The notes below the pieces were generated by a model. That model had not been told where the DNA came from. It ran no database searches and saw only the letters and a program-made list of their open reading frames with translations. Below are positions 1 to 22,708 of a stretch of DNA of 64,000 bases, piece by piece. This stretch comes from a phage. Each line of letters starts with the position of its first letter. Position 1 is the stretch's first letter. The stretch lies in the sequence record PZ445453.1; one strand, written 5' to 3'. Made by a program: the position numbers and the translations under genes.

Positions 1-200
1 TCATTACTAAGCTAAATATAATCTATCTAACCTTTAAAACTATAACTATAATCTATCGAATTGTTGCACAAAGTAACTATTAAATTGTTAGTAACATTAC
101 TAAATAATTAATATCCTATCTATTTATGATCTAATCTTTACCTTCCTATCTATTACCTAAATAACCATTTCATACAGAAATCATTTCATACAATAACTAT
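1..200. repeat. AT-rich leader with short direct repeats (CTATCT x4-5; CATTTCATACA x2)
   Basis: Motifs read at ~24-36, 49-61, 113-126, 142-156 and 165-198; no ORF. Confidence 0.5.
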
Positions 201-259
201 AACAAGAAATATAATTAGCAAGCGTATCATTAGCAGCCTATGCCGGACACATAGGCGGC

Positions 260-400
260 TAATAATAACGCAACTACACACCCCACATAATAACCATCAC
301 CGATAGTTATTATTTGTGCTTATGTAGCTTGCAACAATTGCAAGCGCAACAATATACATGGTATATTGTATCCCTTACATTGTTGCGGTGCGTTATTATT
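260..400. repeat. inverted-repeat / palindrome cluster
   Basis: TAATAATAACGCAAC (260-274) vs GTTGCGGTGCGTTATTATT (382-400); internal palindromes TTGCAACAATTGCAA and CAATATAC-ATG-GTATATTG. Confidence 0.5.
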
Positions 401-704
401 AGCTAATATTTGGAACATTGGCTATAATATAAGCTACATATAATAAGCTATTCAATAATAAACATCGTGAACAATGACATTGATGATCATAATGCGCCAC
501 CTTCCAGGGGACGCTATGTGAACACAAAGAAATCTTTCTTGTCAAGAAAAATATCACCATTATTGCGCAAAATTATTTATATCTGAATAGATGGTTTTTC
601 ATACTATTGCCCCATATAACCTATCATTTGTTGAGCCTATTCTCTTAAAAGCGCAATAAATCAGAATTATCTTGATTTTTAGGTAGTTTTATAGTATAGA
701 AAAT

Positions 705-913
705 ATGCAAATGATAATCATTATCAGCTATCTTCCACGGGTGGCACTATTTCACGCCAGATCATTTCATTTGGCAAGGTGTAGATAGATGTTTAGACTT
801 GCCAAGCCATTGATTTACTTAGAATTTATCTGTTTTGTTGTGAGTAGTACCTTTCTTGCTCAGAAAATAATCAAAAGTCTTATAAGTCATTGAATGATAA
901 TGCAAATGATAAT
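705..913. repeat. 14-bp direct repeat ATGCAAATGATAAT (705-718 and 900-913)
   Basis: Exact repeat read in sequence; both copies next to ATGATAAT-like half repeats. Confidence 0.55.
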
Positions 914-1042
914 AATTCTCATTGATATTTGAGGGGGACGGTCGGCAGAAATCGGGGGGCGCTGAAAATCGCGTTAAGCACCTCTCGCAAGCGAGCAGTA
1001 TTTTGCGGCAAGTTATTGATATTATTGGCTTTACGCTTATGA

Positions 1043-1131
1043 AAAGGGGTGTGTCGAAATAAATCGGGTATACCGGAAAATTTTTGTGGTATAGATATTT
1101 ATTTGTCTATATTATGTACAAAGGGGTGTGT
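1043..1131. repeat. direct repeat AAAGGGGTGTGT (1043-1054 and 1120-1131)
   Basis: Exact 12-mer twice, each followed by (C/T)(G/A)AAA(A)TAA, just upstream of the first ORF. Confidence 0.5.
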
Positions 1132-1224
1132 TAAAAATAATAGGTATATATAGAATAATTGATAGGGAAATCCTATACTAATTCCTCCATTAATGATGTT
1201 TCTATGTTACTGTCCTTGTAATAG

Positions 1225-1647
1225 ATGAAAAGACGCTATATGATGTGTGGCATGAAACGTAAATTTATAAAGGAGTCTGATATGTGTGTTCCTCTTAGCA
1301 GTCCACTGCTGTTAGAATTTTACAAAGCATGGATGGAAGATCATTCCTCAATGCATCGTGAGAATGTTGGTTTGTGTAATTGCCTTATGGATTACCTGGC
1401 AACCACTATGTCAAAGAAAAAACCTACGGAAGAAGATATAGAATATTTCAAGATGGTTCGTAGCAAAACGCTGGAAGAGATGAAACTGCAATTCACGTGT
1501 GCTGGGCTATCCTCCTTCCTACCCTTTAATTATGATCTTCTGTGTTATGAAGATGAAGGTAAGACACATTCTTGCCATACCAACCCAAAGAGATTGCAGT
1601 GGGTGAAAGATAGAATCGAAGATGCAAATAATGCTTGCATTGAATAG
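1225..1647 (+). CDS. hypothetical protein, paralog family A member 1
   Basis: 140-aa ORF; shares LLxFY...GLCxCL...PFN...KRxxWVxDR pattern with 3575..3943 and 4567..5151. Confidence 0.55.
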   Translation: MKRRYMMCGMKRKFIKESDMCVPLSSPLLLEFYKAWMEDHSSMHRENVGLCNCLMDYLATTMSKKKPTEEDIEYFKMVRSKTLEEMKLQFTCAGLSSFLPFNYDLLCYEDEGKTHSCHTNPKRLQWVKDRIEDANNACIE

Positions 1648-1717
1648 AAATGTCTGTACACTGTGTTCCATAAGATATGCAATATCGCGCATAACAAACT
1701 ACTAATGAGAGGTGTAA

Positions 1718-2176
1718 ATGAAAACTGTATCTTTGTATCTTGCTAACACGGAGCGTGTACATAATCTTGTAAAAGAATGCGGTGTGAGTGTTCAATTTAA
1801 CATAGGAAAGCCTTCCGTGGTGACAGGCAGTGAGATGTGTGTTATTGATTTCCTCAATGAATATTTTCGTGGAAAACCTATTGCTCGTCACTTCATTCAA
1901 GAAATGCGAGATGTTCTACAGGATTATGAATTCTACCCAGAAATTTGTGAACGCTATGAAACGATTCTTAGTTCTGTAGAAGATCCAGATACTAGTGAAA
2001 CAGGTGCTTCCCACTTGCTGTGGATGTTGAATGAAATTCAGGATGGGTGTAATGGTATGTCTGAAACCAAACGCCATCGTTGGCTAGGCTATATTCAGGG
2101 TGTTATGGTTATGAAAAACCTTATTACAGTGAATGATGAACGTAACGCTACACGCCCCGTCTTTAATGGAGCATAA
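1718..2176 (+). CDS. hypothetical protein
   Basis: 152-aa ORF in co-directional packed block. Confidence 0.55.
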   Translation: MKTVSLYLANTERVHNLVKECGVSVQFNIGKPSVVTGSEMCVIDFLNEYFRGKPIARHFIQEMRDVLQDYEFYPEICERYETILSSVEDPDTSETGASHLLWMLNEIQDGCNGMSETKRHRWLGYIQGVMVMKNLITVNDERNATRPVFNGA

Positions 2177-2177
2177 C

Positions 2178-2393
2178 ATGAAAAGCATTAGGGTGTGTAT
2201 TGAAAATAATTGTGGCTATCTGGGGTTGACACACGTTGCTTTCCCTCTTATATTGGATGCCGATATAGCTTACAGCGGAGTTGCTTATGTGTCATTCAAG
2301 ACAATGAGCCAAGTACCTGGCTGGAATTGGGAAGTAGTTGATGTTGTTGAAGGAGAAGACTATGTTTTCCTTCCACACGAATATACTGTTTAA
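2178..2393 (+). CDS. hypothetical protein
   Basis: ORF trimmed to ATG at 2178 (GGAG 6 nt upstream, directly after upstream stop). Confidence 0.45.
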   Translation: MKSIRVCIENNCGYLGLTHVAFPLILDADIAYSGVAYVSFKTMSQVPGWNWEVVDVVEGEDYVFLPHEYTV

Positions 2394-2408
2394 AGAGAGG
2401 AAAAGAAG

Positions 2409-2591
2409 ATGGATAAACAAACTACCGTGTACTTAGTAACAAAGAATACCCTAGACTGGAACCAATGCAGCACTGTCCCTTACAAGATCTGTGCAACATT
2501 AGAACTAGCACAACGTGCAGAAGCAGAAGTGGATGCCATGCAAATGCAACACAGCTATGGTGAAATCATTCCTTTTACTATTGAACAATAA
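2409..2591 (+). CDS. hypothetical protein
   Basis: 60-aa ORF, RBS-like AGAGG upstream. Confidence 0.45.
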   Translation: MDKQTTVYLVTKNTLDWNQCSTVPYKICATLELAQRAEAEVDAMQMQHSYGEIIPFTIEQ

Positions 2592-2602
2592 GGATTTGTG
2601 TA

Positions 2603-3055
2603 ATGTTTGAAATTGGTAAAGTGTATCGTTTTAAGAACGCATCTTATATCCGTAAGTTTGCTAATGTGTCTGAGTGCAATAGCAGGATTGCTTCTTTCTT
2701 AGGTGATTCCTGTTTTCGTGTATTAGATGTGGATGACTGGTATGGTGTCACTTCTTTGCAATCCTTAGCAGGAGAGCAAGAAATTATCACTCAAAATGAA
2801 GGAGACTTTGTTCTGTGTTACACCTTGCTTGCAGAAGCTGAGTTTGAATACTTTGTAGAAGTATTAGAAGAAGCACCAAAAAGTAAGCATGAAGAGAAAT
2901 ACCTGCTTGTAGTGGATGGAGTTCCAATTGTGGAAACCATCTCCCGTGAGGAAGTTGAAAAAGAGGCAAAACGTTACAAGCTGGATCGTACACAGAGTGT
3001 AGTTGAAGTCTATTCTCTTGTTGGTGTTGCAGATGTTCATGTGAACATTGTATAA
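2603..3055 (+). CDS. hypothetical protein
   Basis: 150-aa ORF. Confidence 0.55.
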   Translation: MFEIGKVYRFKNASYIRKFANVSECNSRIASFLGDSCFRVLDVDDWYGVTSLQSLAGEQEIITQNEGDFVLCYTLLAEAEFEYFVEVLEEAPKSKHEEKYLLVVDGVPIVETISREEVEKEAKRYKLDRTQSVVEVYSLVGVADVHVNIV

Positions 3056-3269
3056 TATGTGTAATGATAGATACATTCTTCGTGTATCTGATAAGTCTCC
3101 TATGTTTGACTGGCGGGGCTGGTGGCTACTAGCTCCGATGCAAGGTCTGACAGACGTGGAAAAGGAGGCTTATGTGTATACAAAAGAAGAGATAGAAGAT
3201 AGCCTTTATTTGACAGATAACATTAAGAATGGTATCTTTGAGTGTAAATTGAAAGGAGAGGAAGAATGA
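3048..3269 (+). CDS. hypothetical protein
   Basis: 73-aa ORF, short overlap with upstream gene. Confidence 0.45.
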   Translation: MYNMCNDRYILRVSDKSPMFDWRGWWLLAPMQGLTDVEKEAYVYTKEEIEDSLYLTDNIKNGIFECKLKGEEE

Positions 3270-3565
3270 CTGTTACAGAAAAACTGCGTTGTATTGCAAA
3301 GCAAAGTGGAGAAGGTTTGTGGTTTCCTATTGATGAAGTTATTCAGGACTGTTACGATCAGGCTAAAACTGGCAAATACTCCAAAGCATTTAAACCATCT
3401 GTTTTCGGTTTGGATGACTATCCGACAAATGAACAAGCAAGGAAACGCCAAGTTGATTTGATTGATCTTGCTATGGAAGCACTACGGGAGCGTGGACTTA
3501 GTAAGGTGTATGCTTTAAACACCAAAGAGGGTTTTGTAGATTCAGTGATCGTAGACTGGCATTAA
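3266..3565 (+). CDS. hypothetical protein
   Basis: 99-aa ORF, ATGA-type overlap with upstream stop. Confidence 0.5.
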   Translation: MTVTEKLRCIAKQSGEGLWFPIDEVIQDCYDQAKTGKYSKAFKPSVFGLDDYPTNEQARKRQVDLIDLAMEALRERGLSKVYALNTKEGFVDSVIVDWH

Positions 3566-3574
3566 GGAGCAGCC

Positions 3575-3943
3575 ATGCAAGAGAATAATAAAGTGTGTAA
3601 CATGAAAAGCAGCCCCTATTTGCTACAATTTTATGAGTGGTGGTTGGAACAAGAAGATACAAACTTTAGCAAAAAGCACTATGGTCTTTGCACGTGTCTT
3701 GTAGACTTCTTATACAACATTGCTTGGATAAAAGATGTTGAAAATGTATCAAAACTCCAATCCTCTGTACGAGAGGAAATGAAGGAACAGTTTAAGAAAG
3801 CGGGTTTGAACCATTTACATCCATTTAATACAGATTTCTCACATTACTTTACAGAAACAGAGTTAGGCATTGCACACCTTAACAAAGAACGTGTACAATG
3901 GGTGATTGATCGTATTCGTGATATGGAGGAATACAATGGTTAA
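3575..3943 (+). CDS. hypothetical protein, paralog family A member 2
   Basis: 122-aa ORF; family A motifs (LLQFYEWW, GLCTCL, HPFN, ERVQWVIDRI). Confidence 0.55.
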   Translation: MQENNKVCNMKSSPYLLQFYEWWLEQEDTNFSKKHYGLCTCLVDFLYNIAWIKDVENVSKLQSSVREEMKEQFKKAGLNHLHPFNTDFSHYFTETELGIAHLNKERVQWVIDRIRDMEEYNG

Positions 3944-4154
3944 GTTTAAAATTTTCTGTGCAATTACTGTTTGTCTTATTCTTGCATACGTATTATTCTC
4001 TAATATCATCCGTTTAGGTGAGTATATGGCAAGAGAAGCTCGTGAAAGCGAAGCTAAAAAAGAACAGTGTATTGTGTTCAAGCATCAAAGAGATGCTGAA
4101 AAGTTTCTCGCACTTGATTGCAATCGTTATGTATCTTATCAAATGTATAAGTAA
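3936..4154 (+). CDS. small membrane protein, paralog family B
   Basis: Start moved to ATG 3936 after GGAGGA; N-terminal hydrophobic helix; C-terminal KHQRDAEKFLALDCNRYVSY resembles 8648..8872. Confidence 0.45.
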   Translation: MVKFKIFCAITVCLILAYVLFSNIIRLGEYMAREARESEAKKEQCIVFKHQRDAEKFLALDCNRYVSYQMYK

Positions 4155-4163
4155 GGAGGATTT

Positions 4164-4388
4164 ATGGTAAAACGTCTGGAATGGGATGCGTGTACTGCTC
4201 ACGCTTGTCACTGCGATATTGTGGAAGATCCTAATGGAGAAATGGTGTATTATGAGGATTACGAAGCATTGCATAATGCTGTGATCGCTTTACTGGATGA
4301 TATTAGCTCTCGCTATCCAGGACAACAATTTACGTGTCCACACATTCAACTGTTAGCTAAACTTACGGAGTATCCAAGTGTTCCATAA
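4164..4388 (+). CDS. hypothetical protein
   Basis: 74-aa ORF with GGAGGA RBS. Confidence 0.5.
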   Translation: MVKRLEWDACTAHACHCDIVEDPNGEMVYYEDYEALHNAVIALLDDISSRYPGQQFTCPHIQLLAKLTEYPSVP

Positions 4389-4389
4389 T

Positions 4390-4557
4390 ATGGGTGTCCC
4401 TGAACAACTCCTCTTTATTGTAGGACTAGTAGGCTTATTGGCGGCTGGCGCTAAAGCCGCTTCTCACACGCATCACATAATGTTAAGATTTCTATTCCTG
4501 CTCCCTTCTATCCTCGTGTTATTAGTCATACTGATCGATAATATTTTGCACAATTAA
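4390..4557 (+). CDS. small hydrophobic protein (sub-threshold ORF)
   Basis: 55-aa ORF not in supplied track; two hydrophobic stretches; fills intergenic gap. Confidence 0.3.
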   Translation: MGVPEQLLFIVGLVGLLAAGAKAASHTHHIMLRFLFLLPSILVLLVILIDNILHN

Positions 4558-4566
4558 GGAGAGGTT

Positions 4567-5151
4567 ATGAGTAAAATTATACCAAGCAGTTATGAATTAT
4601 TACAGTTTTATGTATATTATATAGACTGGGTTACTAGATCAAATGTTAAAGACAATGCGATGTTTAGTAAAAACATCTGTTTAACAGAAAGTATCTTCCG
4701 TTACTGGCACACAGGCAGAAAGTGTACACACAGTGAAGCTATGCGCATTGTAGGTGAATACCTAGAGCAATTGCAAAAAGCAGAACTTCCTGTCCTTCAC
4801 CCATTCAATGAATCTAAAGAAGAATTAGAACAAGAGTGTAGGGAAGGTAAATGCCATTTGAATGAAAAACGTATTGAATGGGTAAGGCAACGTTTAGCCG
4901 ATGCAGGAAAGTCTCCTAGTGACTCTGACTATACGTGGTACGATGTAGAGGGTTTAGTTCAAGGTTTTGAGGCTTGTGCTATAAATAATACCAACTTTGC
5001 CAAAGTTTTATGCGAGGTTTATGACCTGGCAGATAAAATCCGAAATCAAGGATGGAAACAAGAGCATAAAGAATCATATGAACGCCTTGACAAGATTTTC
5101 AAACAGATCTATTCTAACCACAAAGAGATGTTCCAAATGGAGGATGTGTAA
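4567..5151 (+). CDS. hypothetical protein, paralog family A member 3
   Basis: 194-aa ORF; family A motifs (LLQFY, ICLTE, HPFN, EKRIEWVRQRL). Confidence 0.55.
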   Translation: MSKIIPSSYELLQFYVYYIDWVTRSNVKDNAMFSKNICLTESIFRYWHTGRKCTHSEAMRIVGEYLEQLQKAELPVLHPFNESKEELEQECREGKCHLNEKRIEWVRQRLADAGKSPSDSDYTWYDVEGLVQGFEACAINNTNFAKVLCEVYDLADKIRNQGWKQEHKESYERLDKIFKQIYSNHKEMFQMEDV

Positions 5152-5837
5152 TGAAAGAGATTATGTTTGAAGGGCATCGTTACGAAGTTCCAGACAATGC
5201 AAATTTCATGGCTCGTGATATCACTGGGGATGTGTTCTGGTTTGAAGATGAACCTGTGTTTTCTTCGAACAAACACTGGTTTTCACAACAATCTTCTTCG
5301 GAAAATATGACTTTTGGCTACGTAGAGCCTAAAGTACGTTGCAAAGCAGCTTCTTCTTTGGTAAAAATTTCTCAAGATGATCAAGAAAATACTCAAGATG
5401 TTGTTAGTGCACTACTGAAGTACATTGCAGAACTTGAGAAGAAAGTTAAAGAAGCAGAAACTAAAGTGAAAGCACGATCAGCAATCATCGAAACTATGTC
5501 TGAACGTATTTTAGAACTGGAAGATTTGTGTGGAGAGGCTTATCAAGTGGTTGGTGCACTGGCTTGTGAAGCAGAAATGTTTGAAACTTCAGAACAAGTT
5601 TCACATATGTTAGATAATTTAAGTGAATGTAAAATGATTCATGATGATGTATTGCCATTTTGTTGCAATGTTAACAAAACAGAGCAAACAGAAGATTCAG
5701 AAACAGTTTATGTTCCGCTGATGTGTGTTCCAGATCATCTAAAAGGTGTATTCTCTTGTAAATGGTCACTGTTGAGCGTTACCAACTGTGGTGAAAACTA
5801 TTCTGCTAACATTGAATTGCTAAAACACGTTAAATAA
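5151..5837 (+). CDS. hypothetical protein
   Basis: 228-aa ORF; central predicted coiled coil. Confidence 0.55.
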   Translation: MKEIMFEGHRYEVPDNANFMARDITGDVFWFEDEPVFSSNKHWFSQQSSSENMTFGYVEPKVRCKAASSLVKISQDDQENTQDVVSALLKYIAELEKKVKEAETKVKARSAIIETMSERILELEDLCGEAYQVVGALACEAEMFETSEQVSHMLDNLSECKMIHDDVLPFCCNVNKTEQTEDSETVYVPLMCVPDHLKGVFSCKWSLLSVTNCGENYSANIELLKHVK

Positions 5838-5847
5838 GGAGAGTAAG

Positions 5848-6252
5848 ATGTGGTCTGTTAAAATCAAATATAATGCACAGTATTATGGTGGACAACCTTA
5901 TGAAGTTGTTATTTGTGACTGTATCTCTAAAGAAGTTGCACAGCTTTGTGGCGCTGGCGTTAGTGAAGCTATGAACAAAATGCATAACTCGACTGTGCGT
6001 TACCTGGATCAAGATATTCCAGAAGATGTAAATGACTATGCTTACGAAGTTATTTACAGTGAAGGTAAGAAGCTCTCTATTGAAGATGCACTTAAAGCAC
6101 TACCTGCTATGTGCAGCCCAACACCAGAAGCAGTTAAAGAGATTTTACCAGAATCCAACCCCGATGAATATGCCTCTATGGTTGCTTCAGATATGTGGAA
6201 TCTCTGTCGAGAAACTATGATTAAAAATCTTGTGGAAATGGCGCATGAGTAA
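5848..6252 (+). CDS. hypothetical protein
   Basis: 134-aa ORF. Confidence 0.55.
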   Translation: MWSVKIKYNAQYYGGQPYEVVICDCISKEVAQLCGAGVSEAMNKMHNSTVRYLDQDIPEDVNDYAYEVIYSEGKKLSIEDALKALPAMCSPTPEAVKEILPESNPDEYASMVASDMWNLCRETMIKNLVEMAHE

Positions 6253-6463
6253 AACACACTTTATACATCCGTTTGATCCAAAGAACAAGGCTGTTATACA
6301 CCGCCGTTGGACTGAAACGCGCATTACGAAATGTCCTGTGCCAGCAGCACAGGAATATAACAAAACATATAAAGCAGAATTTGTGGAGTACACCTTTATA
6401 AATAACAAAGGGAAGGAGGTTTATGTTCCAGAATACTGCCTTTGGATAAAATGGGAGGAATAA
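6245..6463 (+). CDS. hypothetical protein
   Basis: ORF trimmed to ATG 6245 overlapping upstream stop. Confidence 0.4.
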   Translation: MSKTHFIHPFDPKNKAVIHRRWTETRITKCPVPAAQEYNKTYKAEFVEYTFINNKGKEVYVPEYCLWIKWEE

Positions 6464-6630
6464 TGCAAACATTTTTTATCGACAAGTTCAATAAAAATAT
6501 GAACACGTGGATGGCAACATTCACTATGCAATTTGCGTCGTTTAAAGAAGCTCAAGAATGGTGCGATCAACACAAGGATTTTGATTTTTACTATCAAATC
6601 AATCTGAATCTCTCTCCAGAGGAGAAATAA
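6463..6630 (+). CDS. hypothetical protein
   Basis: ORF trimmed to ATG 6463 after GGGAGG. Confidence 0.4.
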   Translation: MQTFFIDKFNKNMNTWMATFTMQFASFKEAQEWCDQHKDFDFYYQINLNLSPEEK

Positions 6631-6631
6631 T

Positions 6632-6976
6632 ATGTTGGCTGATATTGAAATCCTTATGTACCGACAAGGTATGATCAAAATGTGGCTGGACTCTTTTAGC
6701 AACATATACAGCACAGTGCGATCAGCAGAGGAGCGTAAAACGCTTATTTTATCTGCTATTGTTGATAAACAACGTTTCTTCAAAGAAGTTTTGCAAACAG
6801 GCTTCTCCGATGCAGGAGTAGAGATTGCAACTCTTAGTCTTGGGGTGCTGTCTTACTTGGAGTCCGTTGTTTTATATGTCTTCTCTTTAGAAGAAGACTT
6901 GCAATTTGAAGCATTAAAACTTATCTTAGATGCTGCAATTGACATAGAACAAAATCGAATTGATTCTTTTGAATAA
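6632..6976 (+). CDS. hypothetical protein
   Basis: 114-aa ORF. Confidence 0.5.
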   Translation: MLADIEILMYRQGMIKMWLDSFSNIYSTVRSAEERKTLILSAIVDKQRFFKEVLQTGFSDAGVEIATLSLGVLSYLESVVLYVFSLEEDLQFEALKLILDAAIDIEQNRIDSFE

Positions 6977-6992
6977 AAATAAGGAGAAAACT

Positions 6993-7451
6993 ATGCAAGA
7001 GGTTAAACATTATCCACATGGTCGTAGTTTTGTAGCTGTATGGCATGTTCCTGCTCGTAATGAACTGTTTTGTGCATCTTTTCATTACAAAGATGGACAA
7101 TATTTCACCTATGACGAGACGATGGATGATTTTATCCCAGAGTGCGATCATGGGTATACACCAATGTTCTTTAAACGTATGAAAGCTCGTTTCTTCGTTA
7201 CAGATGTTGATGGTGAACCTACTTGGCACATCGAAGAAGATTGGCAAGATTCTGTGGATATTAAAGAAGCCCCAGAATGGGCTACACTACTGGTACACGT
7301 GAAAACCCCTACCCTTGACATTATGGCGTGGGTTAATCATGATGATACCCATTACCAATACATAAACAGTAGCACAGAGATTTCTGGTGAGATTATTGGT
7401 CGTTGGAAGCCTACGAATCAGGTTGCTATTGTCGGATATAAGGCAGTATAA
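6993..7451 (+). CDS. hypothetical protein
   Basis: Start at ATG 6993 after AAGGAG. Confidence 0.5.
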   Translation: MQEVKHYPHGRSFVAVWHVPARNELFCASFHYKDGQYFTYDETMDDFIPECDHGYTPMFFKRMKARFFVTDVDGEPTWHIEEDWQDSVDIKEAPEWATLLVHVKTPTLDIMAWVNHDDTHYQYINSSTEISGEIIGRWKPTNQVAIVGYKAV

Positions 7452-7452
7452 T

Positions 7453-7647
7453 ATGAAAAGTAGCGTAGATTGGGATGATTTATCCGCTTTTGAAAAATGG
7501 TTCTTAGGTAGTGGTTGTTATGCAGATGGGGATCTCGAAAGAGATCCTTCTGGAAACTACATTATGCCATTAACCCAAGGTTTTTATGAGTGCTGGTGCG
7601 CAGCACAAAACAACGTACTGAATAAGGAGACAACACAATGCAATTAA
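7453..7647 (+). CDS. hypothetical protein
   Basis: ORF trimmed to ATG 7453 directly after upstream stop. Confidence 0.4.
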   Translation: MKSSVDWDDLSAFEKWFLGSGCYADGDLERDPSGNYIMPLTQGFYECWCAAQNNVLNKETTQCN

Positions 7648-7877
7648 ACATCGGACAACCAATTTTTGATGCAGATACTGGTCAATATGCAGTGATTGTT
7701 GCTCGTATGAGCGGTGATGACTTTATTGTTTCAGAACTACTGGAATCAGATCCGCAACTGCGTGTGGTTTGTGACCTATATCTTCGAGACGAAAGTGATC
7801 GCATTGCACTGAAAGAAGATGGTATGCTTTACTACACCTGGACTAGAGATCCTGGTGTAAAGGAGGTAGAGGTATAA
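7638..7877 (+). CDS. hypothetical protein
   Basis: 79-aa ORF with AAGGAG RBS. Confidence 0.5.
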   Translation: MQLNIGQPIFDADTGQYAVIVARMSGDDFIVSELLESDPQLRVVCDLYLRDESDRIALKEDGMLYYTWTRDPGVKEVEV

Positions 7878-8176
7878 TGGTAAGGAATAGGGGTTTACAT
7901 AAAAGAAGACACCTTACTTACTGGCATCGCAAAGTACATGAACCTGTATCAAAGAAAGAATGGCAATACCTGCCTTATGGAAAGGAGCGAAGGAAGTATT
8001 TGTTAGCTCATTTAAGAGTACATGGTTCGCTTCCTGTTAACAGTAAGTGGCAATTGCAAACAGTTTATGACGAAGATATGAAATATCTGTTAAAGAGAGG
8101 CATTATTTGCCTTGTTAAGATAGGACGATGGAAATCTCGTCAATCTTATATCGTACTTAAACAGGAGAAACCATGA
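7877..8176 (+). CDS. hypothetical basic protein
   Basis: 99-aa ORF, Lys/Arg-rich. Confidence 0.5.
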   Translation: MVRNRGLHKRRHLTYWHRKVHEPVSKKEWQYLPYGKERRKYLLAHLRVHGSLPVNSKWQLQTVYDEDMKYLLKRGIICLVKIGRWKSRQSYIVLKQEKP

Positions 8177-8424
8177 ATATCAAAGATGTTGTAGCATATG
8201 TAGAAGATGAAGTTAAAAACCATACAAGTTTACTGAAAGTAATGGTTGTGGTTAAAAATGGCATTGGACAAGTAAACGTACAACATGTCTTATCTGATAC
8301 TGTATATAATGTGTTTGAATGTAAAGACACACCTCATGGAGTACGTGTGGTGTATATTGATAACAATTTCAAAGAATGTGTGAGACATACCTTAGAAAAT
8401 GAACTAAGGATCACAATCTTATGA
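8173..8424 (+). CDS. hypothetical protein
   Basis: 83-aa ORF, ATGA overlap. Confidence 0.5.
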   Translation: MNIKDVVAYVEDEVKNHTSLLKVMVVVKNGIGQVNVQHVLSDTVYNVFECKDTPHGVRVVYIDNNFKECVRHTLENELRITIL

Positions 8425-8594
8425 GTTATTATGTTGTACCCTATGCCAATAAGTGGAGAGTAAGAGAAACTTGTTTTCTATTCTCCTGGTGGGCTACGTT
8501 CGGAGATGGTTGTGGAAATGATACAGGGAAGCCTGTAGAGTATGACACAAAAGAAGAATGTGAACAGTGGATAAAATTAACACAAAGATGTTGA
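8421..8594 (+). CDS. small Cys-containing protein (sub-threshold ORF)
   Basis: 57-aa ORF not in supplied track; ATGA overlap with upstream gene. Confidence 0.3.
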   Translation: MSYYVVPYANKWRVRETCFLFSWWATFGDGCGNDTGKPVEYDTKEECEQWIKLTQRC

Positions 8595-8647
8595 CACGAT
8601 CTTAACTTCTTGTTAGTATCAATATGTACTAACGATAAGGAGGGTTT

Positions 8648-8872
8648 ATGAAGTCTGTAAACAAGTTGCAACAATTTTTGTTATCAACAGCAATCTTTTT
8701 GCTTTTGTTAATTGGTATTCTGTATGGTGCATCTAACTTATACAATCTACACAACAATGTAGAACATAATATAGAGAAGTGCACCATCCTAAAACACAAT
8801 AAACAAGCAGAAGATTTCTTAAAGAATAAGTGTTACAATTACATTGATTATGAGGAGACAAACAATGATTAA
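8648..8872 (+). CDS. small membrane protein, paralog family B
   Basis: N-terminal TM helix; KHNKQAEDFLKNKCYNYIDY resembles 3936..4154. Confidence 0.5.
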   Translation: MKSVNKLQQFLLSTAIFLLLLIGILYGASNLYNLHNNVEHNIEKCTILKHNKQAEDFLKNKCYNYIDYEETNND

Positions 8873-9107
8873 ACAATTAGGGATGCGAGTATACAGTGAG
8901 TGGACTCCAAGCAATGGCCCAGGAGTTGTTGCAGCTAAATGTATCAATGGTCGTATTGAGTACCTGGAAGGTTATGAAGATAATGAAGAGTTAGTAGATT
9001 ATGCTAAATCTTTTATTGAAGATGATACAGACTTTATTGTATTGTATGATACAGGAGAGTTAGAGTATGGATATGATGGAGATGGGGATATCTTTGAACT
9101 TCAATAA
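8865..9107 (+). CDS. hypothetical acidic protein
   Basis: ORF trimmed to ATG 8865 after GAGGAG. Confidence 0.45.
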   Translation: MIKQLGMRVYSEWTPSNGPGVVAAKCINGRIEYLEGYEDNEELVDYAKSFIEDDTDFIVLYDTGELEYGYDGDGDIFELQ

Positions 9108-9125
9108 GAGTAGTAAGTAAGATAT

Positions 9126-9174
9126 AAAGAGTATATAGTTAGTTATAGAGTTAGTAACATTACATATACTCTTT
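9126..9174. repeat. intergenic inverted repeat (AAAGAGTATAT ... ATATACTCTTT)
   Basis: 11-bp arms read at 9126-9136 and 9164-9174. Confidence 0.5.
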
Positions 9175-9314
9175 CCATGTATAACATGGAATATTCTCTA
9201 CCTCGCTATCGCTCGGTATATAAGATTAGGGTAGCATGTTTTTTACGAAAAGTAAAACTGTTTGTACCGATTGATAGCAGGTTTTTAATAGATTTTATCT
9301 ATGAGGAGTAGAAA

Positions 9315-9533
9315 GTGTACAAATTATATAAAGCAAAAGATAAGTTTACGGGTAATACATCTGGTTTCTATGTAACACCACGAGGTGTTGCTGTATTTGA
9401 TTGGATCTCTGGTACTCCAGATCGTGAAATGATCTCTCTTGTAAAACTGTCAGAACAAGAGTACACTTACGGTGACATTACAACATTCTATTCTCGTGCA
9501 GAGAATCCAAAACTGATTGCGGAGTGGGAATAA
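9315..9533 (+). CDS. hypothetical protein (GTG start)
   Basis: 72-aa ORF, GAGGAG RBS upstream of GTG. Confidence 0.45.
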   Translation: MYKLYKAKDKFTGNTSGFYVTPRGVAVFDWISGTPDREMISLVKLSEQEYTYGDITTFYSRAENPKLIAEWE

Positions 9534-19777: not shown

Positions 19778-20279
19778 AATAGAAAGGTTGAGTTAAACCC
19801 AGCCTGTTTTTTGGGTCGTAGACGTACCAAGCATATGCTGTCTTATCAGTACCACCTGCAACAAAAGATGGTCGTTCAGAAAGAACAATCAAATTTGTTG
19901 GTGGATTCTGTTTATGGAATTCCCTTCGTTTAATAGACTCTAGGAACCCAAGACGCAACAAGTATATGCAAACGTCTGCTTCTTTTAAGCTCTTTTGCAA
20001 GAACTCAAGTGCAAGTCTGAATGGTGGATTTGTGATTATAATATCCGGCTTAGTATGCCATTCGTGGTTAAAATAATCCTTCCCTTCTTCTAACTCACAA
20101 TATTCTGATCCTTCTGGAAAATGTTGATAAATTGCAGCAGCAGCGCCTTTACACGGTTCTGCAAAAATAAAACCTTCTTCTTTAAGGTTATTAAAATCTA
20201 TTACACTAAATAATGCATTTATACATTTTTGTGGAGTAGGATAGTAATCAGTTGGTGGACGATCATACTTATTTGCCAC
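19770..20279 (-). CDS. putative DNA N6-adenine methyltransferase (small)
   Basis: IITNPPF (motif IV N/DPPF/Y) and EPCKGAAA (SAM-binding-like). Confidence 0.55.
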   Translation of the reverse strand: MANKYDRPPTDYYPTPQKCINALFSVIDFNNLKEEGFIFAEPCKGAAAAIYQHFPEGSEYCELEEGKDYFNHEWHTKPDIIITNPPFRLALEFLQKSLKEADVCIYLLRLGFLESIKRREFHKQNPPTNLIVLSERPSFVAGGTDKTAYAWYVYDPKNRLGLTQPFYFV

Positions 20280-20697
20280 TACTTAAAATCTCCTCTTTTG
20301 TGATTTCAGGGTTTTCTTCAAAAACCATAATATCTCTTAAGAACGTTAATTCTTCCATAGATACTGGTATTGTATCTTCTTCTGTTTTTCGTTTACATAA
20401 ATCGTCAAGAAAGTTTTTAATGTTTTCTGACACATCGTAAAATTTCAACAGTTGATAATCACAGGAGGAGATCCTATCTAGTTCTAACATCCTTTCTAAG
20501 ATATTTTCTGTGTTGCCGTACAACACACGAACTTCTCCGAAAGGGTTGACTAAATATTGTGAATTTCTAAACCATCCCTTTTTAGATACAGTGTAACGCT
20601 GTTCTGCTAAACTTTCAATAAAATTTTTAGCTCTTTTACAGTTTTGTTCTAAAGAGTAGTAGGCTTTTTCTACAAATATTACAGGTACTGGTAACAT
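20269..20697 (-). CDS. hypothetical protein
   Basis: 142-aa ORF; GGAGGA RBS. Confidence 0.5.
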   Translation of the reverse strand: MLPVPVIFVEKAYYSLEQNCKRAKNFIESLAEQRYTVSKKGWFRNSQYLVNPFGEVRVLYGNTENILERMLELDRISSCDYQLLKFYDVSENIKNFLDDLCKRKTEEDTIPVSMEELTFLRDIMVFEENPEITKEEILSSGK

Positions 20698-20737
20698 ATC
20701 TCCTCCTAATAACCCCCTTAAGGGGGTTTATGATAGA

Positions 20738-21391
20738 TTAATTATCAGAGGATACTTTATCAAGTTTTTCAGAGACTGTCAATACTTTTTCTTGTGATTC
20801 TTTCATTTCTGCTAAAATACTTTCAGCTTCATCACTATCAGGATCACCAGTCAACAGCATACTAATTAGTTGCTCCTTGCTGAAGTTGAGAATATCTTCC
20901 GCTGTTAACTCCAGTTGTTCTTCGATCTCTTCGATAAAAGTTTCACCGCCTGAAAAAGCATCTCGTAGTTTTGCAACTTCCATCGCTTCTTCTGGGGTTG
21001 CCCCAGCATCTAAAGCTGCTAAAGCAAAATCTGCCCCACTACCAACTGCATAATAATCTTCAGTTAAAGGATATGCTCGCGTTGGATTATTACCCTCGTG
21101 CATATAAATTTTACCGTCAGGGTGAACAACCAATGCCACAAACTCTTCATCTTCTTTATCAGGATCTGACTGGATCACCAAACCTGGGATTGTCTCTTGT
21201 GCTGCCTGGCATTGTAAGTTTTGTTCAAACCAAGAAAAGAAAGTCAGGATAGAAGATAGACGTCCTGCACCACCAACGAGGTAGTCCCCAATTTTACGCA
21301 CTTTCTTGAAATTTAAAGTGTCTACACGACTACCTACTGTTACTTTACCATCAGACAGAATTTTGTTACGTGTTGCAATAATTGTTGTCAT
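20738..21391 (-). CDS. hslV: HslV-like Ntn-hydrolase peptidase with C-terminal acidic extension
   Basis: M-TTIIA N-terminus (Thr nucleophile), KVRKIGDYLVGGAG, AVGSGADFALAAL align to HslV TTIVS / KVRRL...AGFAGG / AIGSGG blocks. Confidence 0.65.
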   Translation of the reverse strand: MTTIIATRNKILSDGKVTVGSRVDTLNFKKVRKIGDYLVGGAGRLSSILTFFSWFEQNLQCQAAQETIPGLVIQSDPDKEDEEFVALVVHPDGKIYMHEGNNPTRAYPLTEDYYAVGSGADFALAALDAGATPEEAMEVAKLRDAFSGGETFIEEIEEQLELTAEDILNFSKEQLISMLLTGDPDSDEAESILAEMKESQEKVLTVSEKLDKVSSDN

Positions 21392-21882
21392 TATACTTCC
21401 TCCTGTAGTGTTTTAAGGACTGCTTTACCACCGCTTACATATTTACGGAGATAATCAATAGCTCTTAGTGTTTCTTTATCCACAAGAATTTTATTAGTTC
21501 TTGTTAGTGGATGATTTAGTAAATCACTGCAATTTCTTACTAACATAGATTTCTTGTGAAAGATGCTGCTAAGAAAAAGAAGTTTACAATCTTCTTCATC
21601 AATTAGGAGTAATTCTGAATTAGACCCAGCTACATTTATTATACACTCAAACAAGCCTTCTTGACTATCAGATAATTCCTGGTAATATTTAGTTAGCCAA
21701 TCCTCTCCTTTCAACCAACTAAAAAACATCTGAACTTTTTGCAAAGTTGTCATGTTCTCTAAACGAAGAGATATTTCTTTTTCAATCTTGTCAATATAAA
21801 TCTGTCTAAACTCATTCGGCTTAACTAAGCCAGCTTGATAGCATTCATCAATACCATTGCGATCAATCTCAATTAGCGTCAT
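21391..21882 (-). CDS. hypothetical protein
   Basis: 163-aa ORF, ATGA overlap with HslV-like gene. Confidence 0.5.
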   Translation of the reverse strand: MTLIEIDRNGIDECYQAGLVKPNEFRQIYIDKIEKEISLRLENMTTLQKVQMFFSWLKGEDWLTKYYQELSDSQEGLFECIINVAGSNSELLLIDEEDCKLLFLSSIFHKKSMLVRNCSDLLNHPLTRTNKILVDKETLRAIDYLRKYVSGGKAVLKTLQEEV

Positions 21883-21918
21883 TTAACCTCCATAACAGGC
21901 ATCCTTGCCTTGTAATTA

Positions 21919-22671
21919 TTAATATACTTCCGTGATGAACTGAGACAAACGGGAACGTTGGTTATCAGCAGTTGTCATTTCAACATAACCAATAAAATCT
22001 ACAATAGCTTCCCTTTCTCCTTCTTCGTTAATAGGAACAACACGATCTAACAAATCACCTAACCCATTAGCTCTTCGTTTAATTGCATATGTTTGATTAA
22101 CATCGCCCATAATGACAATACGTGTATTAAGACCTGCTCGCTCAAGGAGAAGTTTTACTGTATTTGGTGACATAAGTTGAACTTCATCAATAAGAATAAT
22201 GCTGTTATCCCACGTAGCACCTAGTGCATAGTTTGGAATATTAAGTTCAATTTTGCCACTTGCAATATCGTTTTCCAATTTATTTGCAGTCATAAACTGT
22301 TGGAAAATTCTTTTAGTTGATTCGTAGTGTGCTGCTAGTTTATCAGTCTTATCTCCAGATAAGAAACCAATCTGATCATCACCTACTTCTGTCGGGTTTT
22401 TAAGGAAAATCAACTTTCTGAAGTCACCAGCTTTAAGCATTTGCAATGCTTTCCATAGTGCTGTTGTTGTTTTTCCTGTTCCTGCTGGGGCATTAACAAT
22501 GGTTAAATCATTCCAAACCATGCTTCTTACAATAGCTTCTTGATTCCCAACAGGGGTAAATTCATCAAGACGGTAATCATCATTTCCTACTGCTTTAGCC
22601 GCATAACGACTGGCACGTTTGTCATCATTGGCTGCTGATTGACGACGAGCCTTTGCGGTTTTATTTCCCAT
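21919..22671 (-). CDS. phoH: PhoH-like ATPase
   Basis: Walker A NAPAGTGKTTTAL and PhoH-like context. Confidence 0.85.
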   Translation of the reverse strand: MGNKTAKARRQSAANDDKRASRYAAKAVGNDDYRLDEFTPVGNQEAIVRSMVWNDLTIVNAPAGTGKTTTALWKALQMLKAGDFRKLIFLKNPTEVGDDQIGFLSGDKTDKLAAHYESTKRIFQQFMTANKLENDIASGKIELNIPNYALGATWDNSIILIDEVQLMSPNTVKLLLERAGLNTRIVIMGDVNQTYAIKRRANGLGDLLDRVVPINEEGEREAIVDFIGYVEMTTADNQRSRLSQFITEVY

Positions 22672-22685
22672 GTTTGCACTCCTTA

Positions 22686-22708
22686 TAAAAGGGGCTTTCG
22701 CCCCTTTG
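22686..22708 (-). terminator. intrinsic terminator (bidirectional-looking)
   Basis: AGGGGC-TTTC-GCCCCT hairpin with T-runs on both sides. Confidence 0.6.

What the first reader, a model, noticed from the sequence alone, without database searches (positions are those of the whole stretch)
20738..21391. Phage-encoded HslV-like peptidase with an acidic C-terminal extension
After Met1 the ORF reads TTIIA, and it carries KVRKIGDYLVGGAG and AVGSGADFALAAL blocks that are collinear with HslV, the threonine peptidase of the HslUV protease. It has an extra ~40-aa Asp/Glu-rich tail. It could pair with host HslU to redirect proteolysis, or act as a decoy.
Basis: partly seen in the sequence, partly recalled or inferred. 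Interest (0 to 1): 0.6.

Follow-up and report, generated by a model that had tools for sequence, protein, structure and literature searches.

The report
Phage proteasome-like peptidase, not true HslV
This gene of a phi92-like E. coli phage encodes a stripped-down relative of the proteasome/HslV peptidases with an acidic tail; the family is already annotated and described from sequence, nobody has tested its function, and nothing found here supports the idea that it works with the host's HslU.

Summary
The ORF is real. It lies at 20738..21391 on the minus strand and encodes 217 aa. The window is Escherichia phage JohannJBalmer, where the gene is already annotated 'putative proteasome component'; sister phages call it 'peptidase HslV family'.

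Homology to HslV and 20S beta subunits is solid (PHROG 1040 E=1e-61, Pfam Proteasome above threshold, hhalign 97% to E. coli HslV). Thr1, Asp17, Lys33, Ser129, Asp166 and Ser169 equivalents are invariant or nearly invariant in 35 homologs.

It is not an HslV ortholog:
- It scores 34 bits against an equivalog cut-off of 137.
- The model lacks helix H2, which forms part of the HslU-tail pocket.
- The phage encodes no HslU.

It fits the PPH/RPC phage proteasome homologs of Fuchs, Alva and Lupas (2021).

The tail is about 59 aa, not 40. It is acidic and typical of a phage-only subfamily.

Two new details emerged. An unknown all-helical ORF (21391..21882) is always immediately upstream and overlaps the start codon. 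One phage VEcB record carries a 1122-bp deletion that removes the catalytic N-terminus, so the gene is probably dispensable in the laboratory.

Most likely this is an accessory Thr1 peptidase that does not use HslU; this is inferred. Interest is low to moderate.

The parts
20738..21391 (-). Complete ORF (217 aa plus stop) of the proteasome/HslV-like Ntn peptidase homolog. It equals bas62_0199 'putative proteasome component' of phage JohannJBalmer and phi92 gp058.
20918..21391 (-). Catalytic core, aa 1-158, with the proteasome-type Ntn-hydrolase fold. Blocks of 10 residues have mean pLDDT 81-98. Helices H1 (45-67), H3 (120-128) and H4 (133-143) are present; H2 is not.
21386..21388 (-). Thr2 codon. 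It becomes the Thr1 nucleophile once the initiator Met is removed. Invariant in the family (MTT...).
21350..21352 (-). Asp14 codon, equivalent to Asp17 of HslV and 20S beta. Invariant.
21302..21304 (-). Lys30 codon, equivalent to Lys33 of HslV and 20S beta (KKVR motif). Invariant.
21038..21040 (-). Ser118 codon in the GSG motif, equivalent to Ser124 of HslV and Ser129 of 20S beta. Invariant.
20948..20962 (-). D144-A-F-S147-G148, preceded by R143 (RDAFSGG). It aligns with Asp166, Ser169 and Gly170 of yeast beta5 (RDAYSGG). E. coli HslV has GDICIYTN at this place. D144, S147 and G148 are conserved in at least 90% of homologs.
21140..21190 (-). Acidic loop, aa 68-84 (IPGLVIQSDPDKEDEEF; 6 D/E, 1 K). 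It occupies the place of helix H2 and the pore loop of HslV. D81 is invariant; E82 and F84 are nearly so.
20741..20917 (-). C-terminal extension, aa 159-217, with no counterpart in HslV. It has 15 D/E against 5 K/R and three predicted helices of lower confidence. Homologs carry acidic extensions of 44-224 aa.
20846..20914 (-). The only conserved stretch of the tail, aa 160-182 (LELTAEDILNFSKEQLISMLLTG). The family motif is L-T-x-E-x4-[FLM]-[ST]-[KR]-E-[QE]-L-[LI]. It is kept even in Vibrio and Shewanella phage homologs.
21399..21404 (-). Shine-Dalgarno AGGAGG, 7 nt upstream of the ATG and lying inside the end of the upstream ORF.
21391..21882 (-). Upstream ORF of 163 aa (phrog_14834, unknown function). 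Its TAA stop shares one base with the peptidase ATG (TAATG). It sits immediately upstream in all 19 viral contigs whose peptidase is at least 41% identical. The model is all-alpha, pLDDT 94, with no structural or family match.
21919..22671 (-). PhoH-like P-loop ATPase, first gene of the conserved PhoH / ORF163 / peptidase trio. It is also within about 3 kb of the peptidase in Vibrio, Aeromonas and Shewanella phages.
21206..22327 (.). Segment missing from phage VEcB record NC_052663/MT932211. The 1122-bp deletion lies between 8-bp repeats that match at 7 of 8 bases (GTGCTGC[C/T]). It fuses PhoH aa 1-113 to peptidase aa 64-217. It removes Thr1, Asp14 and Lys30, all of ORF163 and the C-terminal half of PhoH.

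Best explanation
The gene encodes a phage-type proteasome homolog of the H2-less PPH/RPC clade of Fuchs, Alva and Lupas (2021). It is not an HslV ortholog.

Proposed mechanism. The protein is made without a propeptide. Host methionine aminopeptidase exposes Thr1. Thr1 then acts as nucleophile with the Asp14/Lys30 pair and the Ser118/Asp144/Ser147 network, as in 20S beta subunits and HslV. I infer that it is a catalytically competent peptidase that works in the infected cytoplasm without the canonical HslU docking mode, more like the unfoldase-independent BPH.

The acidic C-terminal arm is the hallmark of a phage-only subfamily. It probably projects outward as a docking site for a partner or substrate. 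The best candidate partner is the product of the overlapping upstream ORF163.

The gene is an accessory gene that probably aids fitness through host takeover or proteome remodelling. It is not needed for virion assembly or for growth in the laboratory.

Shown here: homology, intact catalytic residues, absence of H2, the phage-only distribution, the conserved gene pair, and the natural deletion.
Inferred: enzymatic activity, oligomeric state, independence from HslU, the role of the tail, and the substrates.
For: Homology and fold:
-.

Catalytic residues:
- T2, D14, K30 and S118 are invariant, and G40, D144 and S147 are at least 90% conserved, in 35 homologs down to 31% identity.
- The same positions are kept in the short viral forms.
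- The match to beta5 S129/D166/S169/G170 is shown and, at profile level.
- There is no propeptide, and every viral homolog whose ORF could be read from its start begins MT[TCV] (57 of 59 loci; the other two are cut).

Not an HslV:
- It lies below the equivalog cut-offs.
- H2 is replaced by an acidic loop.
- 'PPH/RPC lacks the second helix (H2)' is stated in PMC8665760.

Place in sequence space:
- After its own subfamily, the next relatives are mainly 137-155-aa MTT... proteins, together with 173-182-aa forms that are not canonical HslV. The best short viral forms score 55-74 bits against 44 bits for E. coli HslV; the full range is 37-74, so many are no closer than HslV.

No unfoldase partner:
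- No HslU in the genome or in 59 loci.
- The phage AAA ATPase is spread among many phages that lack the peptidase.
- The 2021 survey likewise found no co-occurring AAA+ proteins.

Phage-only:
- One 425-bp contig among 185,579 species genomes.

Coupled partner:
-.

Accessory role:
- A separate prohead protease is annotated in the head module.
- One VEcB record lacks the catalytic N-terminus.
Against: All hosts of this subfamily are gammaproteobacteria, and gammaproteobacteria generally carry hslVU (general knowledge; only E. coli was checked here), so use of HslU cannot be excluded on distribution.

Two of the five HslU-pocket positions named in PMC6429459 are hydrophobic here too (HslV F54 = L49, F57 = F52). 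The KKVR segment is very HslV-like.

Loss of H2 might also prevent ring assembly. The protein could then be monomeric and not a self-compartmentalised protease at all; connectase, which is monomeric, lacks H1 and H2.

The VEcB deletion could be an assembly or stock artefact, because a second VEcB assembly is intact.

The ORF163 adjacency is confined to one phage subfamily (134 records), so it may reflect common descent rather than a functional link.
Confidence: 0.5

Rival explanations
1. One reading: the phage peptidase forms HslV-like rings that dock onto host HslU hexamers. This creates a hybrid ATP-dependent protease with altered cleavage or substrate choice.
For: HslV is the best-scoring solved relative. 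The N-terminal 45 residues, including KKVR and GxAG, resemble HslV closely. The known hosts are gammaproteobacteria, which generally have hslVU (general knowledge; only E. coli hslVU was looked at). The phage brings no unfoldase of its own that tracks with the gene.
Against: Helix H2 is absent, including the positions equivalent to HslV A79/K80 that contact the HslU tail. Q114 is replaced by Pro. The protein lies below the HslV equivalog thresholds. The wider PPH family also occurs in Actinobacteria and PVC bacteria, with no AAA+ co-occurrence (PMC8665760).
Confidence: 0.2
2. One reading: the protein is a decoy or poison subunit. It titrates HslU or co-assembles with host HslV to shut down HslUV, and its own catalysis is irrelevant.
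For: Phages are known to inhibit host proteases; T4 PinA against Lon is an example from general knowledge. The protein is very acidic (pI 4.3), as many phage mimic proteins are.
Against: All seven catalytic and active-site positions are invariant or nearly so across 31-75% identity. Selection for binding alone would not maintain this. The HslU-docking surface is the least HslV-like part of the protein.
Confidence: 0.07
3. The protein is a non-degradative Ntn enzyme, for example a sequence-specific protein ligase or transpeptidase like connectase, or an amidase. It would act as a monomer or small oligomer on one defined phage or host target.
For: Loss of one of the H1/H2 helices has a precedent in monomeric connectase. 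The 2021 survey warns that such variants may not form stacked rings. A tightly coupled partner gene (ORF163) could be the specific substrate or cofactor.
Against: There is no S3/S4 insertion like the connectase signature. H3 and H4, the helices that make ring-ring contacts in proteasomes, form the most conserved block of the protein. The closest structures are all ring-forming peptidases.
Confidence: 0.12
4. The protein is a morphogenetic (prohead or virion maturation) protease.
For: It is a protease homolog in a large myovirus.
Against: A separate prohead protease sits between the portal and scaffold genes (record 4523-5002 = window 59042-59521). This gene lies instead among lysozyme, PhoH, methyltransferase and nucleotide-metabolism genes. 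One VEcB record lacks the catalytic N-terminus.
Confidence: 0.03

Closest known systems
[quoted passage not shown]
   Same: It is a group I proteasome-like homolog. It starts directly with Met-Thr and has no propeptide. It lacks helix H2 and the S12/H5 elements. It is carried by tailed phages. No AAA+ partner co-occurs, and it has never been characterised experimentally. RPC in addition has a C-terminal extension, as this protein does.
   Different: Classic PPH is about 140 aa. This protein has a 158-aa core that keeps an 18-aa acidic loop where H2 used to be, plus a 59-aa tail. RPC was reported only from proteobacterial genomes, whereas this subfamily was found only in phages. Which CLANS cluster the authors would place it in could not be checked.
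HslV (ClpQ), peptidase of the HslUV protease
   Same: Best-scoring solved relative. It shares the Thr1/Asp17/Lys33/Gly45/Ser124 constellation, the KKVR and GSG motifs, and the lack of a long propeptide.
   Different: About 28% identity. The protein is below the equivalog cut-offs. It has no H2, so part of the HslU-tail pocket is gone. The H3-H4 connection is 9 aa shorter. It has RDxxSGG instead of GDxxxYTN. It carries an extra acidic tail. There is no adjacent hslU.
BPH (bacterial proteasome homolog, PDB 5OVS/5OVT)
   Same: Foldseek scores are similar to those for HslV (E about 6e-10). BPH has an acidic loop lining the pore region and no known unfoldase, which is the working model proposed here.
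   Different: BPH keeps H2 and is a bacterial protein forming a heptameric double ring. The oligomeric state of the phage protein is unknown.
20S proteasome beta subunits (archaeal beta, eukaryotic beta5)
   Same: Same fold. The GSG...RDxxSGG active-site support motif is closer to beta5 than to HslV.
   Different: No propeptide, no H2, no H5, and no alpha-type partner subunit.

Membership tests
HslV (NCBIfam TIGR03692 / NF003964 equivalogs) | Whole-protein score above the curated equivalog cut-off | tested here: not met
   34.0 bits against 137, and 31.6 bits against 157.75
HslV | N-terminal Thr1 nucleophile with Asp17, Lys33, the Gly45 oxyanion residue and Ser124 | tested here: met
   T2, D14, K30 and S118 are invariant and G40 is at least 90% conserved. 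The alignment to E. coli HslV is.
HslV | Two helix pairs H1/H2 and H3/H4, with H1/H2 forming the apical surface and the pocket for the HslU C-terminal tail (F54, F57, A79, K80, Q114 per PMC6429459) | tested here: not met
   The model has H1 only (45-67), followed by a loop at 68-83. F54 corresponds to L49 and F57 to F52. The A79/K80 region is a non-helical acidic loop. Q114 corresponds to P108.
HslV | Encoded next to hslU, or with a cognate HslU available in the same genome | tested here: not met
   tblastn with E. coli HslU found nothing in the whole phage genome or in 59 related loci with 10-kb flanks. Only the host supplies an HslU.
HslV | Dodecamer of two hexameric rings whose peptidase activity is stimulated by HslU and ATP | not testable with these tools
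   Only monomer prediction was available, and there is no biochemistry.
Pfam Proteasome (PF00227) / proteasome-like Ntn hydrolases | Score above the gathering threshold, and the alpha-beta-beta-alpha Ntn fold | tested here: met
   25.1 bits against 22.4. Foldseek probability is 1.00 to HslV, archaeal 20S beta and BPH, with TM-score 0.52-0.68 normalised to the target.
PHROG 1040 'peptidase HslV family' | Full-length match to the family profile | tested here: met
   E=1.3e-61, covering residues 1-212
PPH (Fuchs et al. 2021) | Lacks helix H2 | tested here: met
   the definition is quoted
PPH | Encoded by tailed phages, with no propeptide | tested here: met
   167 phage records. Homologs whose ORF could be read from its start begin MT[TCV].
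PPH | Compact, about 140 residues | tested here: not met
   217 aa: a 158-aa core plus a 59-aa tail. The 137-155-aa forms are among its nearest outside relatives. It is therefore PPH-like rather than a textbook PPH.
PPH / RPC | Falls in the authors' CLANS sequence cluster (representatives WP_042125023.1 and WP_140207863) | not testable with these tools
   The representative sequences and the cluster file could not be retrieved.
RPC | PPH-like core plus a C-terminal extension or domain | tested here: met
   Homologs carry tails of 44-224 aa.
RPC | Found exclusively in proteobacterial genomes | tested here: not met
   One 425-bp contig in 185,579 species genomes (a pattern-limited scan), against 167 phage records and 56 viral contigs.
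Phage prohead protease | Located in the head module between portal and scaffold/capsid genes, and required for growth | tested here: not met
   A different gene is annotated in that position. One VEcB record lacks this gene's N-terminus.

The most novel reading that the evidence does not exclude
PhoH-like ATPase, ORF163 and the peptidase form a phage-specific proteolytic module that does not depend on HslU. ORF163 is translationally coupled and has a confidently predicted all-helical fold with no known relative. It would be a dedicated cap, adaptor or assembly factor for an H2-less proteasome-like ring, docking through the acidic C-terminal arm. This would be the first viral proteasome-type machine with its own regulator.
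Probability: 0.12. Interest if true: 0.7.

Novelty: already known. Interest (0 to 1): 0.3.

Why it matters
Proteasome homologs carried by phages have been catalogued, but none has been studied experimentally. It is unknown whether they form rings, what they cut, or whether they use host unfoldases.

This copy sits in a BASEL-collection phage that grows on E. coli K-12. Host hslU and hslV deletions and phage engineering are routine in that system, so the HslU question can be answered directly.

The practical value of this check is mostly corrective. 'HslV' in phage annotations should be read as 'H2-less proteasome homolog of unknown partner', not as a subunit of HslUV.

The conserved ORF163 pairing and the natural VEcB deletion give cheap starting points for experiments.

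Tried and rejected
1. ORF163 as a degenerate alpha-like paralog of the peptidase. Aeromonas phage 2L372D has two adjacent PHROG 1040 genes, which suggested the idea. hhalign probability was 1.7% and BLASTP found nothing, so it was rejected.
3. The phage AAA ATPase (bas62_0104, annotated 'FtsH-like protease', outside the window) as a dedicated unfoldase. Its homologs are common in Enterococcus, Bacillus, Staphylococcus and Lactococcus phages, genera absent from the peptidase's organism tally, and rare in the Vibrio phages that carry it. Rejected as a specific partner.
4. PhoH adjacency as functional evidence. The whole block from glutaredoxin through lysozyme, PhoH and the peptidase to the recombinase and DprA genes is syntenic between E. 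coli and Shewanella phages. Common descent therefore explains the adjacency.
5. A HeH/SAP/Rho_N-type motif in the tail. The window's tail gave no Pfam hit. Only one long homolog gave a sub-threshold Rho_N match, E=0.058.
6. Known domains in the longer C-terminal extensions of homologs. None were found.
7. Membership of a defence or anti-defence family. No PADLOC hit.
8. Relatives in bacterial genomes or prophages. Essentially none.
9. Literature on the function of phage HslV or PPH. Genome papers mention it only in passing, and PMC8665760 is the only analysis. One search was wasted on too broad a term. Ramachandran et al. 2002 is not held.
10. The promoter and terminator scan gave no more sites than shuffled controls.

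Full report
**The observation.** The ORF at 20738..21391 exists, on the minus strand. The ATG is the first start after an in-frame stop, so there is no propeptide. An AGGAGG lies 7 nt upstream.

**Source of the window.** Over the stretches compared (5 kb around the gene, and 9.5-12.7 kb pieces at both ends and around the locus) the window is 100% identical to Escherichia phage JohannJBalmer (MZ501084; BASEL phage Bas62; genus Justusliebigvirus, phi92-like). It covers record 90312..144831 joined to 1..9481. In that record the gene is already annotated 'putative proteasome component'. In phi92 and dozens of relatives it is 'peptidase HslV family', 'HslV family peptidase' or 'putative 20S proteasome'.

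**Strength of the HslV resemblance.**
- PHROG 1040 'peptidase HslV family', E=1.3e-61.
- Pfam Proteasome, 25.1 bits against a gathering score of 22.4.
- HslV chains are the best PDB sequence matches: 5e-8 with the single sequence and 3e-12 with a profile of 36 family members. Beta5 subunits follow at about 1e-6.
- hhalign to E. coli HslV gives 96.9% probability over residues 1-129.
- The AlphaFold model built on the family alignment has mean pLDDT 86, with blocks of 81-98 in the core. It matches HslV, archaeal 20S beta and BPH with Foldseek probability 1.00 and E about 1e-10.

**Catalytic residues.** In 35 homologs of 31-75% identity, T2, D14, K30, G41, G43, S118 and G119 are invariant. G40, R143, D144, S147 and G148 are at least 90% conserved. 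By the alignment to E. coli HslV these are Thr1, Asp17, Lys33, Gly45 and Ser124. The GSG...RDAFSGG segment aligns with yeast beta5 GSG...RDAYSGG, that is Ser129, Asp166, Ser169 and Gly170. The fragment alignment is weak on its own but is backed by the profile match. E. coli HslV has GDICIYTN at that place. The active site is therefore complete, and in this respect closer to 20S beta than to HslV.

**Why it is not an HslV.**
- It scores 34 and 31.6 bits against the two NCBIfam HslV equivalogs, whose cut-offs are 137 and 157.75.
- The model shows one long helix (45-67), then a 16-residue loop (68-83), then a strand. HslV and 20S subunits have a second helix, H2, at that position.
- In alignments this region is IPGLVIQSDPDKEDEEF. 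It is acidic, contains Pro and Gly, and has D81 invariant, with E82 and F84 nearly invariant.
- PMC6429459 names HslV residues 54, 57, 79, 80 and 114 as accommodating the HslU C-terminal tail. Here 54 and 57 remain hydrophobic (L49, F52). Positions 79/80 fall in the non-helical loop, and 114 is Pro108.
- The H3-H4 connection is 9 residues shorter than in HslV.
- No HslU homolog is encoded anywhere in the phage genome or within 10 kb of the gene in 59 related phage loci.

**What family it belongs to.** Fuchs, Alva and Lupas (Bioinformatics 2021, PMC8665760) surveyed proteasome homologs. [quoted passage not shown] They state that 'PPH/RPC ... lacks the second helix (H2)'. They found no propeptides outside proteasome beta and HslV, no co-occurring AAA+ partners, and no clue to function.

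The window protein fits that description. A profile search of 1.84 billion representative proteins finds 57 clusters at E<=1e-30. All have tails and are 183-350 aa long. Beyond them lies a continuum of mainly 137-155-aa proteins starting MTT at 1e-19 to 1e-28, mixed with 173-182-aa forms that are not canonical HslV. Direct BLASTP gives 37-74 bits to short viral forms and 44 bits to E. coli HslV. Short forms occur in about 490 phage records, including 42-kb Salmonella siphophages.

The tailed subfamily appears to be phage-only. The single hit among 185,579 bacterial and archaeal species genomes is a 425-bp contig (a pattern-limited scan). That argues against the authors' RPC, which was reported only from Proteobacteria. 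Cluster membership could not be tested because the representative sequences were not retrievable. I therefore file it as PPH-like: an H2-less phage proteasome homolog with an RPC-style extension.

**The tail.**
- The extension is aa 159-217, which is 59 aa rather than 40. It has 15 D/E against 5 K/R.
- The core is itself acidic (pI 4.5; whole protein 4.3).
- Homologs have acidic tails of 44-224 aa.
- Only the first helix-turn-helix (LELTAEDILNFSKEQLISMLLTG, aa 160-182) is conserved. It persists in Vibrio and Shewanella phage homologs of 32-38% identity.
- Confidence in the tail is lower, with pLDDT falling from 82 to 47.
- Neither this tail nor the larger C-terminal domains of long homologs match any Pfam family.
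[quoted passage not shown] That is the basis for the docking-arm inference.

**Gene neighbourhood.** On the minus strand the order is glutaredoxin, a small ORF, endolysin, PhoH-like ATPase (21919..22671), ORF163 (21391..21882), the peptidase, ORF142 (20269..20697), and an N6-adenine methyltransferase.

The ORF163 stop (TAA) shares its last base with the peptidase ATG (TAATG), and the peptidase ribosome-binding site lies inside ORF163. In all 19 viral contigs whose peptidase is at least 41% identical, PhoH, an ORF163 homolog (99% down to 32% identity) and the peptidase are contiguous in that order. The same holds in phAPEC8 and in Klebsiella phage FBKp34. ORF163 occurs in 134 phage records, which equals the number of records whose peptidase is at least 60% identical.

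ORF163 has no Pfam, PADLOC or annotated PHROG match. It folds with pLDDT 94 into nine helices. It has no structural neighbour and is not detectably related to the peptidase.

More distant phages (Vibrio 501E54-1, Shewanella 1/40, Aeromonas 2L372D) keep PhoH within about 3 kb but have no recognisable ORF163. Because the wider block is syntenic between these phages, PhoH proximity is explained by descent and is not evidence of a functional link.

**Dispensability.** The RefSeq/GenBank record of phage VEcB (NC_052663 / MT932211) lacks window 21206..22327. The 1122-bp deletion lies between 8-bp repeats that match at 7 of 8 bases (GTGCTGC[C/T]). It creates a 267-aa in-frame fusion of PhoH aa 1-113 to peptidase aa 64-217. 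The fusion lacks Thr1, Asp14 and Lys30, all of ORF163 and half of PhoH. A second VEcB assembly (OZ035773) is intact.

If the deletion is real, the trio is dispensable for propagation in the laboratory. Together with the annotated prohead protease in the head module (record 4523-5002, window 59042-59521), this rules out a morphogenetic role and points to an accessory function.

**Mechanism.** The best-supported reading is an active Thr1 peptidase. Met removal by host methionine aminopeptidase follows from established knowledge: Thr is a permitted second residue. The catalytic network is shown by conservation.

Whether the protein forms rings is not known. The most conserved block is H3-H4 (GSGxDFALAALDAGATPEEAMEVAKxRD). 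These helices make the ring-ring contacts in proteasomes. This is compatible with a stacked assembly but does not prove it.

The acidic loop that replaces H2 recalls the long acidic pore loop of BPH, which has no known unfoldase.

I rate the alternatives as follows:

| Reading | Probability |
|---|---|
| HslU-independent peptidase | about 0.5 |
| HslU-dependent hybrid protease | 0.2 |
| Non-degradative Ntn enzyme | 0.12 |
| Decoy of HslUV | 0.07 |
| Morphogenetic protease | 0.03 |

**Novelty.** The gene, its HslV/proteasome annotation, and the existence of H2-less phage proteasome homologs are all already public. No experimental study of any of them was found in the searchable literature.

Four smaller points are added here:
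- The annotation 'HslV' overstates the relationship.
- The tailed forms are a phage-only subfamily.
- There is a translationally coupled partner of unknown function.
- There is a natural deletion.

Interest is low to moderate.

Noticed in passing
window 21391-21882 (-): ORF163 is an orphan, confidently folded all-alpha protein (pLDDT 94) with no family or structural match. It is always immediately upstream of the peptidase in Stephanstirmvirinae-type phages, with a 1-nt stop/start overlap (TAATG). It is the best candidate for a partner or regulator.
   Followed up: yes
window 21206-22327; L067 (NC_052663.1 20355-22977): The phage VEcB RefSeq record has a 1122-bp deletion between near-identical 8-bp repeats. 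It fuses PhoH to the peptidase and deletes ORF163. Another VEcB assembly (OZ035773) is intact. RefSeq annotates the 267-aa fusion as 'peptidase HslV family' although it lacks the catalytic N-terminus.
   Followed up: yes
L003:4432-4983 and L003:5001-5885 (Aeromonas phage 2L372D): Two adjacent PHROG 1040 genes of 183 aa and 294 aa. The shorter one has Cys in place of the GSG serine (VGCGEY). This could be a two-subunit, heteromeric version of the phage proteasome homolog.
   Followed up: partly
outside the window: MZ501084 record 75667-76794 and 59489-60649 (L006:25667-26794 and about L006:9891-10646): The phage has two paralogous AAA ATPases, 47% identical over 254 residues. One is annotated 'FtsH-like protease', but it is 375 aa, matched only ATPase-type Pfam families, and no peptidase family. 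Homologs are widespread in large phages of Gram-positive hosts.
   Followed up: partly
window 21919-22671 (-) and L002, L004, L027, L056: A PhoH-like ATPase stays within about 3 kb of the tailed peptidase in every locus with at least 32% identity, and in none of the loci with short PPH forms except L056. This is most simply explained by shared synteny.
   Followed up: partly
window 20714-20726, 21897-21910, 22688-22707: Short GC-rich hairpins sit in the three intergenic gaps of the lysozyme / PhoH / ORF163-peptidase / ORF142 string. None is followed by a good T-run on the coding (minus) strand. They may be RNA-stability or processing elements rather than terminators.
   Followed up: no
phage records MG065639, MG065645, MG065656, MG065689: Phage records labelled 'Campylobacter phage' (A150, A145, C3, A110a) are about 98% identical to this E. 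coli phage across the locus. The host label or the stock is probably wrong.
   Followed up: no
P0061, P0069, P0115 (long homologs): Some tailed homologs carry a Cys/His-rich insertion (C-x-H ... C-x-x-C, zinc-ribbon-like) and a conserved terminal domain ending W[RK]LHNA or W[KW]V. Neither is known to Pfam.
   Followed up: partly
window 20269-20697 (-): ORF142 (phrog_15078, unknown function), immediately downstream, is also conserved next to the peptidase in most relatives (26-97% identity). It overlaps the start of the methyltransferase gene by 11 nt.
   Followed up: no
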